From positions 16,434 to 80,433 of the forward strand of contig JALVOC010000172.1 of the NCBI GenBank assembly GCA_027032075.1: a stretch of 64,000 bases of DNA. Reading direction: 5' to 3'. Source of the DNA: Chromatiales bacterium (GTDB lineage: Bacteria > Pseudomonadota > Gammaproteobacteria > UBA6429 > Thiohalophilaceae). The notes under the pieces are model-generated. The model made no database searches and was not told the DNA's origin. It saw nothing but the letters and a program-made list of their open reading frames with translations. The translations under genes and the position numbers were made by a program. Every line of letters begins with the position of its first letter. Within the stretch, counting starts at the first letter, position 1. Positions 2,340-40,536 of this stretch are shown piece by piece.

Positions 2340-2558
2340 GCAGGGCCGGCAACCTCAACTGGCCGCCAGGGATGGCGGTCAGATGCGGCTGTCGAGCTTA
2401 GCTGGACGATGTAGAGAATGTACGCGTGCCGTGGAGCACATGGATGTGCGGGAACGACGGTATTTACTGCGTGGCATGTAAAATACCCCTGCCCCTGATG
2501 CGAAACCGGAATCTGCCAATACTGTTAAATGATCTGGTATTCGGAACACTTATTTTAG
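2340..2558 (+). repeat. Structured intergenic repeat, type-1, 5'-truncated copy (F1-a)
   Basis: 2363..2558 aligns to 15706..15900 at roughly 85-90% identity by eye. It ends in the terminal motif ctggtattcggaacacttattttag (2534..2558). The left arm and left terminal repeat are absent. Confidence 0.8.
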
Positions 2559-13635: not shown

Positions 13636-13687
13636 GTGTTTTGAATACCAGTTCATTTAACATTATTGACGGATTCCAGTTCCGCAT
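13636..13687 (-). repeat. Isolated long-arm module of the structured repeat family
   Basis: 43/52 identical by eye to the reverse complement of the right arm of the 15.6-kb element (15846..15897). Confidence 0.6.
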
Positions 13688-14174
13688 CTGCGGTCGAAGT
13701 AAATACAACGGCAGCAGATTCCTTCTTACTCTTGCATTCTCCCTCAAACATCTTTATACCAGCAAATCACTGCTGTCCCGTTAACTCCCACTCCCCCGGG
13801 AGAGGGTTGGGGTAAGGGGTGCTTAACGGGATAACTCATTTGTTTTTTTACCCACTCATCCTGGCCTTCTCCCGGGGGGGAATGAATCGCGCCAATTTCA
13901 GCGTTGCATGATCCCCTCTCCTCCATGGCTTCGATCAGGCAAGGTGTATACTGGGTCAGAGATTTACCAGGTTTTCAGCTAATGTTAACGGCACAGTAAT
14001 GCAGGCAAATTTAAAATGGATCCCCTATACTGAATAACAGAATAATCAGTCAATTTACAATCAGGCAGGTATATCGTTTTTCAACATGTCACCTTTGAAT
14101 AAATCAGGATCACAATAATCTATACGATATAAAATAAACCGGATTTCAGGAAAACAACGAAGCGGAACAATTAC

Positions 14175-15566
14175 ATGCACATCGAATTCCATGGCGCCGA
14201 TCGTGGCGTCACCGGCTCGTGCCATCTGATTGAATGCGCCGGCAAACGCCTGCTGATCGATTGCGGTCTTTACCAGGGTGGACGCGAACTGGAAGAGGAG
14301 AATGCCACCGACTTTGGCTTTGATCCGGGAAGTATCGATTATCTGCTGCTGACCCACGCTCATCTGGATCACTGCGGGCGCATCCCCCTGCTGGTGAAAC
14401 GCGGGTTTAAAGGTGAGATCATCACCACTGCGGCGTCGCGTGAACTGGCGCGATTGGTGATGCTGGATGCCGCTTATCTTAATGAGGAGGAAGCGGAATA
14501 CAAGTCACGCAAGGCTGCACGCCATGGCCGCAAGCGACATGCGATCGAGCCGCTTTACACCACGCTGGACGCACTCAACAGCCTGGATTTCTTCGGGCGC
14601 AGTGCGGATTACGGCGGGATGATTGAGCTGGCGCCCGGTATCCGCGCCACCTTCCTGGATGCCGGCCATATCCTCGGCTCTGCAAGCATTCTGCTGGAAC
14701 TCAACGAAACAGGACACAACAGGCGGGTTTTGTTTTCCGGCGATCTTGGCTACAGCGGCCGTCCGATACTGCGCGATCCGACTCCGCCGCCACCGGTCGA
14801 TGTGGTGATCATGGAGACGACCTACGGCGATCGCTGCCATAAACAACTCGCCCCTTCGGTTGAAGAATTGTATGCCGCCATTGAAGATACCTTCCGCCTT
14901 GGCGGGAATGTGATCATTCCCACTTTCGCCCTGGAGCGTGCCCAGGAGATCCTCTACTTCCTGCGCGAGGGGGTTGATGACGGGCGTCTGCCGCGCGGCA
15001 TGCAGGTGTTTCTCGATTCACCCATGGCGATTTCGGCCACGCAAATCTTCAAGCGCCATCCCGAATGTTACGACACCGAAACCATGACGATCTTCAGTGA
15101 AGGTCGCGATCCTTTTGACCTGCCGGGCCTGCATTTTACCCGCGAGACAGCCCAGTCCATCGCCTTGAACCAGGTTGTCAGTGGCGCCGTGATCCTGGCA
15201 GGCTCCGGCATGTGTACCGGCGGGCGGGTGCGCCACCACCTGAAACACAACCTCTGGCGCCATGACAGCAGCGTGATATTTGTTGGGTACGCGGCACACG
15301 GCACCCTCGCACGGCATATCATTGATGGCGCGGAAAGTGTCCGGATCTTTGGCGAGGAGATCCCGGTGCACGCGTCGATCTATACCATCGGTGGTTTTTC
15401 CGCCCATGCCGATCGTGACGAACTGCTGGCCTGGCACCGTCATACCGATCATCCCGGAATAACGTACCTGGTGCACGGTGATGAGGAAGCAATGCAGCAT
15501 TTCGCCCGGCGATTAAAGGGCAACACCGTGGAAATGCCGAGCCTGCATCAGACATTTACCCTTTAA
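14175..15566 (+). CDS. MBL-fold beta-CASP family hydrolase (RNA-metabolising type)
   Basis: HAHLDHCG motif. Size (463 aa) and C-terminal GGFSAHADRDEL...HGD motifs are typical of beta-CASP proteins. Confidence 0.85.
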   Translation: MHIEFHGADRGVTGSCHLIECAGKRLLIDCGLYQGGRELEEENATDFGFDPGSIDYLLLTHAHLDHCGRIPLLVKRGFKGEIITTAASRELARLVMLDAAYLNEEEAEYKSRKAARHGRKRHAIEPLYTTLDALNSLDFFGRSADYGGMIELAPGIRATFLDAGHILGSASILLELNETGHNRRVLFSGDLGYSGRPILRDPTPPPPVDVVIMETTYGDRCHKQLAPSVEELYAAIEDTFRLGGNVIIPTFALERAQEILYFLREGVDDGRLPRGMQVFLDSPMAISATQIFKRHPECYDTETMTIFSEGRDPFDLPGLHFTRETAQSIALNQVVSGAVILAGSGMCTGGRVRHHLKHNLWRHDSSVIFVGYAAHGTLARHIIDGAESVRIFGEEIPVHASIYTIGGFSAHADRDELLAWHRHTDHPGITYLVHGDEEAMQHFARRLKGNTVEMPSLHQTFTL

Positions 15567-15588
15567 AAGTATTCCGAATACCACTCCA

Positions 15589-15901
15589 CCTAAATAGGCG
15601 TTCCGAATACCAGTACACTTGGGAAATGGAGCATTAGGACCAGAGGTCTTTTACATGACCGTCAGCCGCAGGGCATGGATTGTTCCTGACAATCCTTATG
15701 CATTTCCGCCATCCCTGGCGGTCAGATGCGGCTGTCGTGCGTACCTGGACGATGTACAGGATGTACAAGTGTCGTGGAGCACATGGATGTGCGGGAACGA
15801 CTGTATTTACAGCGTGTCATGTAAAAGACCTCTGGTCCTAATGCGAAACCAGAATCTGCCAATAATGTTAAATGATCTGGCATTCGGAACACTTATTTAG
15901 G
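15589..15901 (+). repeat. Full-length structured intergenic repeat, type-1 (F1-b; MITE-like, non-autonomous)
   Basis: Terminal inverted repeats cctaaataggcgttccgaataccag (15589..15613) and ctggcattcggaacacttatttagg (15877..15901). Perfect 28-bp inner stem 15632..15659 / 15816..15843. No ORF with protein-like properties. Confidence 0.85.
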
Positions 15902-16012
15902 CCACGGAGCAACAGGGGCAACAAAGATGAACCCGAATAACGGAGTGATATCAATAATCAGGCGGGATAATTATTCTGCCTTCCGCTTCTGCAAACCTGG
16001 CCGCGTTCTTTT

Positions 16013-16333
16013 TCAGTATTCCGGCTCCCACCGCCGTAAACGGGAACGCAGGGTTTCAATCTCATCCATCAAATCCAGCACCAAGGCGGCACCGGCAAGA
16101 TTGATATCCAACTCCTGCTGTAAACGCAGTGCCGCACGCGCCCGGCGCAAACTCCCGCCGGGAAACTGCCATTGACTTACCTCGGCACCGGAAGGTTCCA
16201 GTAACCCCTCCTGCACCAGTGCGATAATCCACTCCGCATGCACATCACAGGCACGGCTGAGTTCGCCCAGCGTGAACGTCACCTCTTCGTCCAGTATCAA
16301 TCCGGTCAATACCGGCAGATTTTCTTTTTTCAT
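16013..16333 (-). CDS. cbpM: Chaperone modulatory protein CbpM (MerR-like)
   Basis: 106 aa, 6 nt downstream of cbpA. The TLGELSRACDV...WIIALVQEGLLEP motif is typical of CbpM. Confidence 0.8.
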   Translation of the reverse strand: MKKENLPVLTGLILDEEVTFTLGELSRACDVHAEWIIALVQEGLLEPSGAEVSQWQFPGGSLRRARAALRLQQELDINLAGAALVLDLMDEIETLRSRLRRWEPEY

Positions 16334-16339
16334 CGTCAG

Positions 16340-17284
16340 TTACACCCCGAGACGGGCGCGTGGATTAAACGCCATCTGCTGTTCCATCTTCCTGTATAAC
16401 GCCCTGTCCTCTTCAGTTTTTGCCGGTGGCAGGGCAATTTGCAGCACCACATAAAAATCACCGGGAGGGTTGCCCGGGATCCCCCGCCCTTTCAGGCGCA
16501 ACTTGCGCCCCTGGCGGGATCCTGCCGGAACCTTCAAATCCACGATACCGCCGGGCGTCGGAACTTTAACCGTCGCTCCCAGAGCGGCCTCCCATGGCGC
16601 CACCGGCAAATCGAGATAGAGATCCCTGCCATCCACACGATAGAAAGGATGAGGCTTGAATTCCACCTCGAGATAGAGATCACCCGCCTTGCCTTCACCC
16701 ATACCGGGGGCACCCTGTCCTGCCAGACGAATGCTCTGCCCCTGTTTGACCCCCTTGGGAATACGCACATTCAGGGTCCGCTCCCGTGTCTGCACACGCC
16801 CCTGCTCATCCAGCTCCGGCCGGCGCAGGGTCACAGCACGGGTTGTCCCGTGGTAGGCATCTTCAAGATCGATCAATATCTTGGCATGGTGGTCTTCACC
16901 CCGGGCGTGAAAACGGGCGCGCCGGCCCCCTGCTTGCCGGAACTCACGGCCGAAAAGGGATTCAAAAAAATCACTGTAGGCAGAAGCGTCACCTGCAGTA
17001 AACCCCCCGCCACTGAACTCGAAACCCGCATCCCACTCCGGTGGCGGATGGAATTCCTGCCCCGCTTTCCAGTTGGCGCCAAGCTGATCATAGGCTGCGC
17101 GTTTTTCCGGATCCTTGAGAACCTCGTATGCTTCGCCCACTTCCTTGAAACGCGCCTCTGCATCCGCTTCCTTGCTCACATCCGGATGATACTTGCGCGC
17201 CAACTTGCGATAAGCACGCTTGATTTCATCCTGGGTGGCATCGTGCTTCACCCCCAAAATCTGATAATAGTCTTTGTATTTCAT
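16340..17284 (-). CDS. cbpA: Curved-DNA-binding DnaJ-like co-chaperone CbpA
   Basis: J-domain: DYYQILGV...[12 protein letters not shown]. No zinc-finger region. DnaJ C-terminal domains, 314 aa. Confidence 0.9.
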
Positions 17285-26324: not shown

Positions 26325-26568
26325 CGTTCCGAATACCGGATCATTTTGTATTGTTGCCGGATTCTAAATGAGTGTGCGAAAAAGGTGTCCAGTTTGTTAT
26401 TTGACAAGCCAGCTCTCCGGTACCCCATGGCAAGACTCTCGGCAGCAGGGATGCTGCCGTGAAGCTTACAGGGATGTATTCACAGCGTGTCTCGCCATGG
26501 GGTACCGGAGAGCTGGCCTCTCGATACACGGAATTATCCCCTATCAATGTGGACACCTTTTTCGCACA
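26325..26568 (+). repeat. Structured intergenic repeat, type-2 copy A
   Basis: Long-arm module 26325..26365. Nested palindromes: outer 17-bp stem 26374..26390 / 26551..26567, inner 20-bp perfect stem 26409..26428 / 26497..26516, 68-nt core 26429..26496. Confidence 0.85.
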
Positions 26569-26650
26569 GCTATCTGATTTCGCAACAGGGCCAAAGGAAC
26601 AAACAGCTTCACACCCTTTATTTTCTTGCCCGCATATAACTGAATATTTG

Positions 26651-29249: not shown

Positions 29250-29385
29250 GGAATCGGACAATATTTTTCCGCTGATTTATCAGGAAAAATTATTTTGCAA
29301 ACGGGTATTTCGGATTCCGCTCCCCTTACAATTGGTATAAACCCGGCGATCGCTCACCTGCTTGCAGTTTTCCGGGCGGCTAGAT

Positions 29386-29589
29386 AGCTGTGCGAAAAAG
29401 GTGTCCAATTCAAATGACAGTGATTTCCATAAAATGGAGGGGCCGTTTCTCCAGTAGCTGCTGGCAAGACACGCTGTGAATACATCCCTGTAAGCTTCAC
29501 GGCAGCATCCCTGCTGCCGAGAGTCTTGCCAGCAGCTACTGAAGAAACGGCTTACCAATTTTTAAAGTGGACACCTTTTTCGCACGGCT
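29386..29589 (-). repeat. Structured intergenic repeat, type-2 copy B (inverted relative to copy A)
   Basis: Outer stem 29386..29406 / 29569..29589. Inner 20-bp stem 29443..29462 / 29531..29550 (one mismatch). The core 29463..29530 is the reverse complement of the copy A core, 67/68 identical. Confidence 0.85.
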
Positions 29590-40477: not shown

Positions 40478-40536
40478 CCTCTGTCCCTGATGCTCCCTTT
40501 GCCCAAGTGTACTGGTATTCGGAACGCCTATTTAGG
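40478..40536 (-). repeat. Truncated left end of a type-1 structured repeat, abutting the PRTase start codon
   Basis: 40502..40536 is 35/35 identical to the reverse complement of 15589..15623. Weaker similarity continues to 40478, immediately before the ATG at 40477. Confidence 0.8.

What the first reader, a model, noticed from the sequence alone, without database searches (positions are those of the whole stretch)
15589..15901. Complete 313-bp MITE-like element directly after a beta-CASP hydrolase gene
The element has 25-nt terminal inverted repeats (cctaaataggcgttccgaataccag / ctggcattcggaacacttatttagg). These enclose a perfect 28-bp stem (cattaggaccagaggtcttttacatgac / its complement) and a ~156-nt interior.

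An extra partial terminal motif (attccgaatacc, 15571..15582) sits 5 nt after the upstream stop.

The interior shares blocks with the type-2 core: a hairpin with a 4-nt GGGA/TCCC loop, gagcttag/gaagcttac, and gtatt[tc]ac[at]gcgtg. Type-2 therefore looks like an internal-deletion derivative with different flanks.

No transposase is present anywhere in the window.
Basis: seen in the sequence. Interest (0 to 1): 0.6.

Follow-up and report, generated by a model that had tools for sequence, protein, structure and literature searches.

The report
IS630-derived MITE with nested hairpin cargo
This is a genuine small non-coding transposon (a MITE) derived from the two ends of an IS630-family insertion sequence, present at more than 100 sites in an uncultured Thiohalophilus-like bacterium; it is an ordinary kind of selfish repeat, but it carries an unusually modular hairpin interior that is kept symmetrical.

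Summary
A 311-bp element (window 15590-15900) has 24-nt terminal inverted repeats and a perfect 29-bp inner stem. It begins 23 nt after the stop codon of a beta-CASP gene.

It belongs to a family covering about 0.65% of this 3.68-Mb genome, with size classes of about 90-100, 207, 258 and 311 bp.

I found the parent. It is a 1,165-bp IS630-family insertion sequence (344-aa transposase) present in related genomes and metagenomes. Its left and right ends match the element's two distinguishable ends (right end 26 of 30). Parent copies and nested MITE insertions show duplication of TA inside a CTAG-like target.

This genome keeps only a 191-bp fragment of the parent, so the copies may now be immobile.

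The window copy is itself inserted into an older, decayed mini-copy.

The interior is modular: a two-hairpin core plus two optional blocks of about 55 nt that also occur alone in other genera. Its palindromes show compensated changes, a flipped loop and inverted cores with no strand bias. That points to DNA-level processes, not an RNA gene.

Verdict: a new member of a known kind, of modest interest.

The parts
15590..15900 (.). Complete 311-bp type-1 MITE copy, counted from the flanking C to the flanking G (C-TA-[305-bp element]-TA-G)
   Evidence: Boundaries from the alignment of 10 full-length copies with unrelated flanks. Base conservation drops to background outside the C at -4.
15591..15592 (.). 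Left copy of the inferred TA target-site duplication
   Evidence: Nested insertions and a shared-TA junction. Parent IS copies are flanked by TA inside CTAG.
15898..15899 (.). Right copy of the inferred TA target-site duplication
   Evidence: Same as the left copy.
15593..15620 (+). 'A' terminus (AATAGGCGTTCCGAATACCAGTACACTT), equivalent to the right end of the parent IS
   Evidence: 26/30 identical, counting the TA, to the right end of the IS630-family element in L095.
15870..15897 (-). 'B' terminus (family consensus AATAAGTGTTCCGAATACCAGATCATTT; this copy reads ...GAATGCCAG...), equivalent to the left end of the parent IS
   Evidence: Resembles the L095 left end AATAACTGTTCCAAATAGCAGATCAC. 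The identical terminus is found in Thiohalophilus thiocyanatoxydans MITEs.
15631..15659 (.). Left arm of the perfect 29-bp inner palindrome
   Evidence: Across 38 copies pairing is 97.4% Watson-Crick, with 31 compensated and 29 one-sided departures.
15816..15844 (.). Right arm of the 29-bp inner palindrome
15665..15732 (.). Core hairpin 1 (GCCGC...GCGGC) carrying optional module 1 (15674-15727). Module 1 is two hairpins, GGATTGT-TCCTG-ACAATCC and CCGCCA-TCCC-TGGCGG.
   Evidence: Present in 18 of 50 type-1 cores. In short copies it is replaced by the loop AGGGAG. It occurs alone at 85-93% identity in other genera and once alone in this genome.
15745..15802 (.). Optional module 2: two hairpins with GGA loops (GTACA-GGA-TGTAC and GCACA-TGGA-TGTGC). 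It takes the place of the loop of core hairpin 2.
   Evidence: Present in 20 of 50 type-1 cores. It occurs alone in at least 8 other genera.
15803..15815 (.). Conserved 3' block of the core (GTATTTACAGCGT), shared with the type-2 family
15561..15589 (+). Left remnant of an older, degenerate mini-MITE (CTTTAAAAGTATTCCGAATACCACTCCAC) into which the 311-bp copy inserted. It contains the stop codon of the beta-CASP gene.
   Evidence: Nine uninterrupted paralogues read ...GTTCCGAATACCACTCCAC-TTAA(or a variant)-GCCACGG....
15901..15919 (+). Continuation of the older mini-MITE to the right of the insertion (GCCACGGAGCAACAGGGGC); further right it is too decayed to trace
   Evidence: paralogues C159:82209, C21:5257, C124:146 and others.
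14175..15566 (+). Upstream beta-CASP / metallo-beta-lactamase RNA-specificity hydrolase gene (463 aa)
   Evidence: Pfam Beta-Casp 1.1e-38, Lactamase_B, RMMBL. ORF.

Best explanation
The element is a non-autonomous DNA transposon (MITE) derived from both ends of an IS630-family (IS630/Tc1-mariner) insertion sequence. It encodes nothing.

Inferred mechanism: a transposase supplied in trans (344 aa, N-terminal helix-turn-helix domains plus a DDE_3 catalytic domain) would bind the terminal repeats of about 24-28 nt, excise the element, and insert it at a TA inside a CTAG-like target, duplicating the TA.

This copy landed in the TTAA/CTAG-like centre of an older mini-copy lying at the 3' end of a beta-CASP gene, between convergent genes.

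The termini are the conserved mobile chassis. The interior is cargo that differs between species. In this genome the cargo is a two-hairpin core closed by a 29-bp palindrome, with two optional hairpin blocks of about 55 nt, giving the 207, 258 and 311-bp classes. Copies of 89 and 102 bp look like deletions between short direct repeats (GAAAC, ACCAGA).

The palindromes appear to be maintained and rearranged at the DNA level, through arm-to-arm correction, loop flips and inversion of the whole interior.

Shown here: family membership, boundaries, matching parent termini, the TA/CTAG signature, absence at two orthologous sites in a congener, and lack of an intact parent in this assembly.

Inferred: trans-mobilisation, current inactivity, and the DNA-level upkeep mechanism.
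For: Copy number and size classes:
- 122 blastn loci.
- 57 convergent terminus pairs: 21 of 63-134 bp, 16 of 198-217, 7 of 257-260, 12 of 302-313, plus one false pair of 678 bp.
- Type-1 and type-2 together cover 172 loci, 23.8 kb (0.65%); 169 of 172 lie outside long ORFs and 26 sit at contig ends.

Parent element:
- G019 carries a 344-aa transposase with DDE_3 and HTH_23/28/29/32/33. NCBIfam names it IS630 family at 243.6 bits against a cut-off of 100.
- Complete copies of about 1,165 bp are in L088, L089 and L091; L092, L093, L095 and L096 give both ends of related copies.
- L095 right end TAAATAAGCGATCCAAATACCAGTCCACTT matches the MITE 'A' end TAAATAGGCGTTCCGAATACCAGTACACTT at 26/30.
- L095 left end AATAACTGTTCCAAATAGCAGATCAC resembles the MITE 'B' end AATAAGTGTTCCGAATACCAGATCAT.
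- The L096 right end carries the CCACTCCACT variant found in the older host copy in the window.
- G001 (same genus) has a terminus followed directly by the DDE half of the transposase, which is an internal-deletion intermediate.

Target signature:
- 13 of 14 IS ends read C-TA; the exception reads T-TA, so the C comes from the target.
- Nested case C237:50741: empty paralogues read GACC-CAG-TGTACA; the occupied site reads GACC-TA-[element]-TA-GTGTACA.
- In four nested cases a 4-nt host segment stands where CTAA...TTAG stands in the occupied site.
- Two abutting elements share a single TA at C19:170936.
- Flank conservation stops exactly at the C.

Mobility: G001 lacks the element at two orthologous sites.

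Cargo exchange: the same termini carry unrelated interiors in Thiohalophilus thiocyanatoxydans and other MAGs.
Against: - No intact parent IS is in this assembly. There is only a 191-bp fragment at C21:45851-46041, 97.9% identical to the L091 IS.
- The five IS630-type ORFs that are present have unrelated termini.
- No base-exact empty site was recovered for any copy. The two orthologous empty sites in G001 are too diverged.
- For the window copy itself, uninterrupted paralogues read TTAA where the model needs CTAG. Either this host copy had two substitutions, or the outer C and G belong to the element.
Confidence: 0.88

Rival explanations
1. The chassis is an IS630 MITE, but the interior blocks (the core, module 1, module 2) are a separate class of small mobile hairpin elements. 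They spread by their own mechanism, such as insertion into hairpin loops by template switching or single-strand transposition. On this view the 311-bp element is a chimera of two mobile systems.
For: - Copies exist with neither module, either one, or both: 24, 6, 8 and 12 of 50.
- Each module sits exactly where a hairpin loop (AGGGAG) stands in short copies.
- The modules occur without these termini at 85-93% identity in at least 13 genomes of other genera.
- In G011 module 2 interrupts an Rhs-type reading frame.
- A solo, diverged module 1 lies at C71:9680-9758 in this genome.
- The same core sits in two different chassis (type-1 and type-2) and within three different long palindromes.
Against: - No insertion signature, enzyme or empty/filled pair was defined for the modules.
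- The four combinations could equally arise from independent deletions of an ancestral long form.
- Solo modules in other genera could be remnants of decayed MITEs whose termini I did not recognise.
Confidence: 0.3
2. The element, or its core, is a structured regulatory RNA. For example, it could be a decoy or binding platform for CsrA/RsmA, because many of its hairpins carry (A)GGGA or GGA loops flanked by CA...UG. That resembles the CsrA/RsmE binding consensus (recalled from my own knowledge, not tested).
For: - Loops are conserved while stems change between families and species: GCCGC/GCGGC, GGCAGCA/TGCTGCC, GGCCACA/TGTGGCC, all with GGGA loops.
- csrA is present in the genome.
- The fold is very stable.
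Against: - Core orientation in co-directional gene contexts is 16 sense to 28 antisense, so there is no sense bias.
- Module 1 and module 2 carry their GGA loops on opposite strands of the same element.
- In the 29-bp stem G.T and A.C mismatches are equal, 8 and 8.
- A loop is flipped in place in another copy, and the whole interior is inverted in 5 of 27 copies.
- There is no Rfam match.
- The same termini carry unrelated cargo elsewhere.
Confidence: 0.05
3. It is a REP/REPIN-type element mobilised by a REP-associated tyrosine transposase (RAYT), as the first reader suggested as an alternative.
For: - The genome has a RAYT-like gene at C21:46409-47464, with an HUH-type NHYHVIL motif and an NCBIfam REP_Tyr_transpos hit at 42 bits, below the cut-off of 80.
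- The element is rich in hairpins.
Against: - The element has long terminal inverted repeats that match IS630 ends and a TA/CTAG signature.
- The repeats next to the RAYT-like gene are a different sequence, ATTTTAAAGTATGGATGTCCYGGTTTTC.
Confidence: 0.02
4. The 29-bp stem serves as the transcription terminator or 3'-end stabiliser of the beta-CASP gene, so the copy is retained for that function.
For: - The element starts 23 nt after the stop codon, between convergent genes.
- It forms a hairpin of about -149 kcal/mol if transcribed.
- No other terminator-like site lies between the gene and the element.
Against: - No U-tract follows the stem on the + strand, so it does not meet the intrinsic-terminator pattern.
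- Copies lie in every gene context and orientation.
- No expression data could be obtained.
Confidence: 0.15

Closest known systems
RUP of Streptococcus pneumoniae (an IS630-Spn1-related MITE) and other IS630/Tc1-mariner-derived bacterial MITEs (from my own knowledge)
   Same: Short and non-coding, with terminal repeats matching an IS630-family element. It has a TA target duplication, many intergenic copies, and presumed trans-mobilisation.
   Different: This family is larger (up to 311 bp) and strongly modular. Its two ends remain distinguishable as the left and right ends of the parent. No intact parent is in the same genome. The target looks strictly CTAG-like.
Correia elements (NEMIS) of Neisseria (from my own knowledge)
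   Same: A TA duplication, inverted repeats of about 25 nt, long and short size variants differing by an internal block, often co-transcribed with neighbouring genes, folding into long hairpins.
   Different: Unrelated sequence and host. For Correia elements no parent transposase is established as far as I know, whereas here the parent IS lineage is identified. Promoter, IHF-site or RNase III effects were not tested here.
ERIC/IRU elements and BIMEs of enterobacteria (mosaic intergenic repeats; from my own knowledge)
   Same: Imperfect palindromes with variant forms created by extra internal blocks at fixed positions, and a mosaic of reusable sequence modules.
   Different: The modules here sit in hairpin loops of a core carried inside a defined IS630 chassis. 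BIMEs are REP-based and RAYT-associated, which this element is not.
IS630 of Shigella sonnei (family prototype; from my own knowledge it inserts at CTAG and duplicates the TA)
   Same: The same transposase family (NF033545) and the same target signature at the parent copies.
   Different: IS630 is autonomous and has different terminal sequences. The element studied is a derivative of about 0.3 kb without a gene.

Membership tests
MITE (miniature inverted-repeat transposable element) | Small size with no coding capacity for a transposase | tested here: met
   The element is 311 bp. The only internal ORFs are of 93 aa or less and lie within repeat sequence.
MITE (miniature inverted-repeat transposable element) | Terminal inverted repeats | tested here: met
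   A 24-nt consensus repeat; 32 nt at 81% in this copy.
MITE (miniature inverted-repeat transposable element) | Many dispersed copies with unrelated flanks | tested here: met
   122 loci and 57 complete pairs. 172 loci counting the sister family.
MITE (miniature inverted-repeat transposable element) | Target-site duplication | tested here: met
   A TA duplication is inferred from nested insertions, a shared-TA junction and the parent IS flanks. No base-exact orthologous empty site was obtained.
MITE (miniature inverted-repeat transposable element) | Presence/absence differences between related genomes | tested here: met
   The same-genus genome G001 lacks the element at two orthologous sites.
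IS630-family derivative | Termini match those of a transposase-encoding IS630-family element | tested here: met
   The L095 right end matches the 'A' end at 26/30, and the L095 left end resembles the 'B' end. The transposase is IS630 family at 243.6 bits.
IS630-family derivative | Insertion at TA (often within CTAG) with TA duplication | tested here: met
IS630-family derivative | Autonomous partner in the same genome able to mobilise it | tested here: not met
   Only a 191-bp fragment remains. The assembly has 241 contigs, so an unassembled copy is not excluded.
IS630-family derivative | Transposase binds and moves the element | not testable with these tools
   This needs a transposition or binding assay.
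REP/REPIN (RAYT-mobilised) | Short palindromic units associated with, and flanking, a RAYT gene | tested here: not met
   The RAYT-like gene on C21 is flanked by different repeats.
Intrinsic (Rho-independent) terminator | GC-rich stem followed by a U-tract on the transcribed strand | tested here: not met
   No U-tract follows the 29-bp stem on the + strand.
Known non-coding RNA family (Rfam) | Match to a curated covariance model | tested here: not met
   No match at E <= 1 in window 15000-16500.
CsrB/RsmZ-type CsrA-sequestering RNA | Multiple GGA loops on one transcribed strand, expressed as a discrete RNA | tested here: inconclusive
   GGA loops are present but on both strands. Orientation is unbiased (16:28) and G.T equals A.C. 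Expression could not be tested.

The most novel reading that the evidence does not exclude
The hairpin cargo (a two-hairpin GGGA-loop core plus modules 1 and 2) is an independent, family-wide class of very small structured modules. They move or are copied into hairpin loops and other sites by a mechanism unrelated to IS630, and they hitch-hike on at least two MITE chassis. Their conserved GGGA/GGA loops with covarying stems could reflect recognition by a host or mobile-element protein acting on folded single-stranded DNA or RNA.
Probability: 0.2. Interest if true: 0.6.

Novelty: new member of a known kind. Interest (0 to 1): 0.3.

Why it matters
- **Annotation.** The result explains many contig breaks in this assembly (26 family loci sit at contig ends). 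It also accounts for about 0.65% of the genome and flags spurious small ORFs inside the repeats.
- **MITE origin.** It is a clean example of how a MITE arises. Both ends of an IS630-family element are kept and remain distinguishable, an internal-deletion intermediate survives in a congener, and the parent has been lost from this genome.
- **Open question.** The interior may be more than filler. Reusable hairpin modules with conserved loops occur across genera, and the palindromes are actively kept symmetrical. If these modules prove independently mobile or protein-bound, the family would be a convenient system for studying the upkeep of DNA hairpins in bacteria.

Tried and rejected
So I had no population reads for exact empty sites and no RNA evidence.
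2. An exact-protein look-up of the beta-CASP gene in other assemblies found nothing on record.
3. I searched the joined flanks of 54 insertions against the same-genus genome. Only two sites aligned across the junction, and both were too diverged to read the duplication.
4. A 3.1-kb pair of termini in L051 looked like a possible autonomous element. It is two separate MITEs around adk and another gene.
5. Five IS630-type transposase ORFs sit on short contigs of this genome. Their termini are unrelated, and C192 is cut at both ends with no overlaps.
6. The CsrA-binding RNA idea for the GGA-loop hairpins was not supported by orientation, by mismatch asymmetry, or by the strand distribution of the loops.
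7. A 4-bp duplication (IS5-like YTAR) was rejected because the left CTAA and right TTAG are inverted repeats, not direct repeats, in nearly all young copies.
8. Two literature searches found no description of these repeats in Thiohalophilus.

Full report
**Observation**

The sequence is as described.
- A perfect 29-bp inverted repeat lies at 15631-15659 and 15816-15844, enclosing 156 nt.
- Terminal inverted repeats lie at 15589-15620 and 15870-15901 (32 nt, 81%).
- I aligned ten full-length genomic copies with 40-nt flanks. Similarity starts and stops at CTAAATAGG...CCTATTTAG. The element therefore spans window 15590-15900, which is 311 bp.
- It begins 23 nt after the TAA stop (15564-15566) of a 463-aa beta-CASP/RMMBL hydrolase gene.
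- The genes downstream are on the opposite strand, so the element lies between convergent genes.
- Rfam has no match.

**Copy number and size classes**

- The window is part of contig C172 of a 3.68-Mb, 241-contig genome.
- blastn finds 122 loci.
- The 24-nt terminus occurs 200 times at 5 or fewer mismatches, forming 57 convergent pairs:

| Size (bp) | Number of pairs |
|---|---|
| 63-134 | 21 |
| 198-217 | 16 |
| 257-260 | 7 |
| 302-313 | 12 |
| 678 | 1 (false pair) |

- Together with the sister family, the repeats cover 172 loci and 23.8 kb (0.65%). Of these, 169 lie outside long ORFs and 26 touch contig ends.
- Other copies in the window lie at 2373-2555, 13636-13687 and 40478-40535. Type-2 copies lie at 26364-26577 and 29382-29585.

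**Anatomy**

Reading the classes side by side shows a modular build.
- The outer chassis has two distinguishable ends: 'A' (...CCAGTACACTTGGGAAAC) and 'B' (...CCAGATCATTTAACATTATTGG).
- Inside is a 29-bp palindrome enclosing a 53-nt core, CGTC-[GCCGC AGGGAG GCGGC]-TGTCGAGC-[TTAC AGGGAG GTA]-TTTACAGCGTG. This gives the 207-bp form.
- In the 258-bp and 311-bp forms, one or both AGGGAG loops are replaced by hairpin blocks of about 55 nt (modules 1 and 2).
- Among 50 type-1 cores, 24 have no module, 6 have module 1 only, 8 have module 2 only, and 12 have both.
- The 89-bp and 102-bp forms look like deletions between short direct repeats (GAAAC, ACCAGA), judged by inspection.

**Organism and distribution**

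- The terminus pattern occurs only in *Thiohalophilus thiocyanatoxydans* DSM 16326, other *Thiohalophilus* MAGs and a few unclassified gammaproteobacterial MAGs.
- G005 of the relatives appears to be that strain. L039 (from a 189,205-bp contig) and L048 (from the 189,205-bp record NZ_SOQX01000006.1) are the same 162-bp element with identical flanks.
- In those genomes the same termini enclose unrelated interiors of 137-198 bp. One of them (L051) carries a homologue of the short core with changed stems but the same GGGA loops.
- So the termini are the conserved mobile part and the interior is exchangeable cargo.

**Parent element**

- Pfam DDE_3 hits in this genome lie on five short contigs. 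Their inverted repeats are unrelated to the MITE.
- In the same-genus genome G001, a type-2-like terminus (TAAATAACTGTTCCAAAAAGGTGTCCA) is followed about 50 nt inward by the DDE half of a transposase. This is an internal-deletion copy.
- Its full-length relative in G019 is 88% identical over that fragment. It has 344 aa with HTH_23/28/29/32/33 and DDE_3 domains. NCBIfam names it an IS630 family transposase at 243.6 bits, with a cut-off of 100. It has more than 1,300 relatives in public data.
- Contigs carrying close relatives show complete elements of about 1,165 bp (L088, L089, L091) and both ends of further related copies (L092-L096).
- The ends of the L095 element match the two ends of the window element:

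| IS end (L095) | Sequence | MITE end | Sequence |
|---|---|---|---|
| Left | TA-AATAACTGTTCCAAATAGCAGATCAC | 'B' | TA-AATAAGTGTTCCGAATACCAGATCAT |
| Right | TA-AATAAGCGATCCAAATACCAGTCCACTT | 'A' | TA-AATAGGCGTTCCGAATACCAGTACACTT (26/30) |

- The L096 right end carries the ...CCACTCCACT variant seen in the older copy in the window.
- The type-2 terminus is closest to the left end of the L088/L089/L091 subgroup (22/26).
- This genome keeps only a 191-bp internal fragment of the IS, at C21:45851-46041, 97.9% identical to L091.

**Target signature**

- Thirteen of 14 parent IS ends read C-TA. The one exception reads T-TA, so the C is target sequence.
- At MITE termini, base conservation drops to background immediately outside that C. 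C is at 75% and T is the next most frequent base.
- Nested insertions give empty-site proxies:
  - A mini-copy at C237:50741 lies in another repeat. Uninterrupted copies of that repeat read GACC-CAG-TGTACA, and the occupied copy reads GACC-TA-[element]-TA-GTGTACA.
  - The same site is hit in the opposite orientation at C228:13824.
  - A type-2 copy sits in a type-1 'B' end at GATT-CTGG/CTAG-TTTCGC.
  - The window copy sits where nine paralogues read CCACTCCAC-TTAA (or a variant)-GCCACGG.
- In each case a 4-nt host segment stands where CTAA...TTAG stands in the occupied site. That is the length expected for a 2-bp duplication plus ends AAT...ATT.
- Two abutting elements share a single TA.
- For the window copy, the paralogues' TTAA predicts T...A rather than the observed C...G. 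This is a small unresolved discrepancy.
- G001 lacks the element at two orthologous sites, but the surrounding intergenic DNA is too diverged to read the junction.

**Type-2**

- Its termini (CTAAATAGCCGTGCGAAAAAGGTGTCCA) share only the outer 10 nt or so with type-1.
- Its long palindrome is different.
- Its core has the same layout with other stems: GGCAGCA-GGGA-TGCTGCC and TTACA-GGGA-TGTA.
- It is a sister family carrying the module-less core, not a deletion product of the 311-bp element.

**RNA or DNA?**

The element folds to about -149 kcal/mol on either strand, with z of -11 and -12.5. No U-tract follows the stem on the + strand. Many loops are GGGA or GGA within CA...UG. This resembles CsrA/RsmE sites (my recollection), and csrA is present. 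The tests, however, argue against a strand-specific RNA:
- Core orientation in co-directional gene contexts is 16 sense to 28 antisense. By my normal approximation p is about 0.1, and the lean is the wrong way.
- Modules 1 and 2 bear their GGA loops on opposite strands.
- In the 29-bp stem of 38 copies, pairing is 97.4% Watson-Crick and G.T equals A.C, at 8 each.

The palindrome is nevertheless actively kept. There are 31 compensated against 29 one-sided departures at about 5% divergence. One hairpin loop is flipped in place between window 2361-2376 and 15706-15721. The whole interior is inverted relative to the A and B ends in 5 of 27 copies. Arm-to-arm correction and recombination across inverted repeats explain these observations without an RNA.

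**Modules elsewhere**

- Modules 1 and 2 occur at 85-93% identity, without these termini, in at least 13 genomes of other genera.
- G012 has several copies and the same module-2/linker/module-1 arrangement.
- G013 keeps the GCTGTCGAG linker.
- In G011, module 2 interrupts an Rhs-type reading frame.
- A diverged solo module 1 lies at C71:9680-9758 in this genome.
- Whether the modules are independently mobile, or are remnants of other decayed elements, is open. This is the most novel reading left standing.

**Verdict**

This is a real, well-defined MITE family derived from an IS630-family element: a new member of a known kind. Its modular, self-correcting hairpin cargo adds some interest.

**Limits**

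- No base-exact empty site was recovered.
- No intact parent is present in this draft assembly.

Noticed in passing
G000:C21:45550-47464 (outside the window): A 351-aa HUH/Y1 RAYT-like gene (NHYHVIL motif; NCBIfam REP_Tyr_transpos at 42 bits, below the cut-off). It is followed by short direct repeats ATTTTAAAGTATGGATGTCCYGGTTTTC. Among those repeats lies the 191-bp fragment of the parent IS630-family element (97.9% identical to L091).
   Followed up: partly
window 15561-15566: The last codon and the TAA stop of the beta-CASP gene lie inside the degenerate left terminus of the older mini-MITE (CTTTAAAAGTATTCC...). That old insertion may therefore have reshaped the gene's 3' end.
   Followed up: no
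window 2361-2376 versus 15706-15721: The hairpin CCGCCA-GGGA-TGGCGG in the truncated copy is CCGCCA-TCCC-TGGCGG in the full copy. The loop is inverted in place while both flanks stay collinear.
   Followed up: yes
L036 1500-1553 (G011:C32): A 54-nt copy of module 2 interrupts an Rhs/YD-repeat-type reading frame (...VYEHV | module | FPFGETW...YYYGARYYDPRTSVW) and shifts the frame.
   Followed up: partly
L076 1-430 (G001:C33): An internal-deletion derivative of the parent IS: a terminus followed about 50 nt later by the DDE domain, with the DNA-binding half missing. It looks like a snapshot of an IS on its way to becoming a MITE.
   Followed up: partly
G000:C237:50741, C228:13824; a related copy at window about 13906-13999 (C172:30339-30432): A further repeat family (TGCCGTCCCGTTAACATTACC...GGTAAGTCTCAGACC-CAG-TGTACACTTTGCC) was hit twice by type-1 MITEs at the same internal CCAG/CTGG site, in opposite orientations.
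   Followed up: no
G000 contigs C62, C127, C139, C84, C192: Five other IS630-family transposase ORFs sit on contigs of 1.1-1.7 kb, with termini unrelated to the MITE. C84 is flanked by a (TA)n run. They may be collapsed repeats or binning contaminants.
   Followed up: partly
L091 about 420-486; L095 about 490-600: The parent IS carries an inverted repeat of about 10-22 bp between its left end and the transposase start codon (for example CTTCGATGCC...GGCATCGAAG ending at the ATG). It might occlude translation initiation on read-through transcripts.
   Followed up: no
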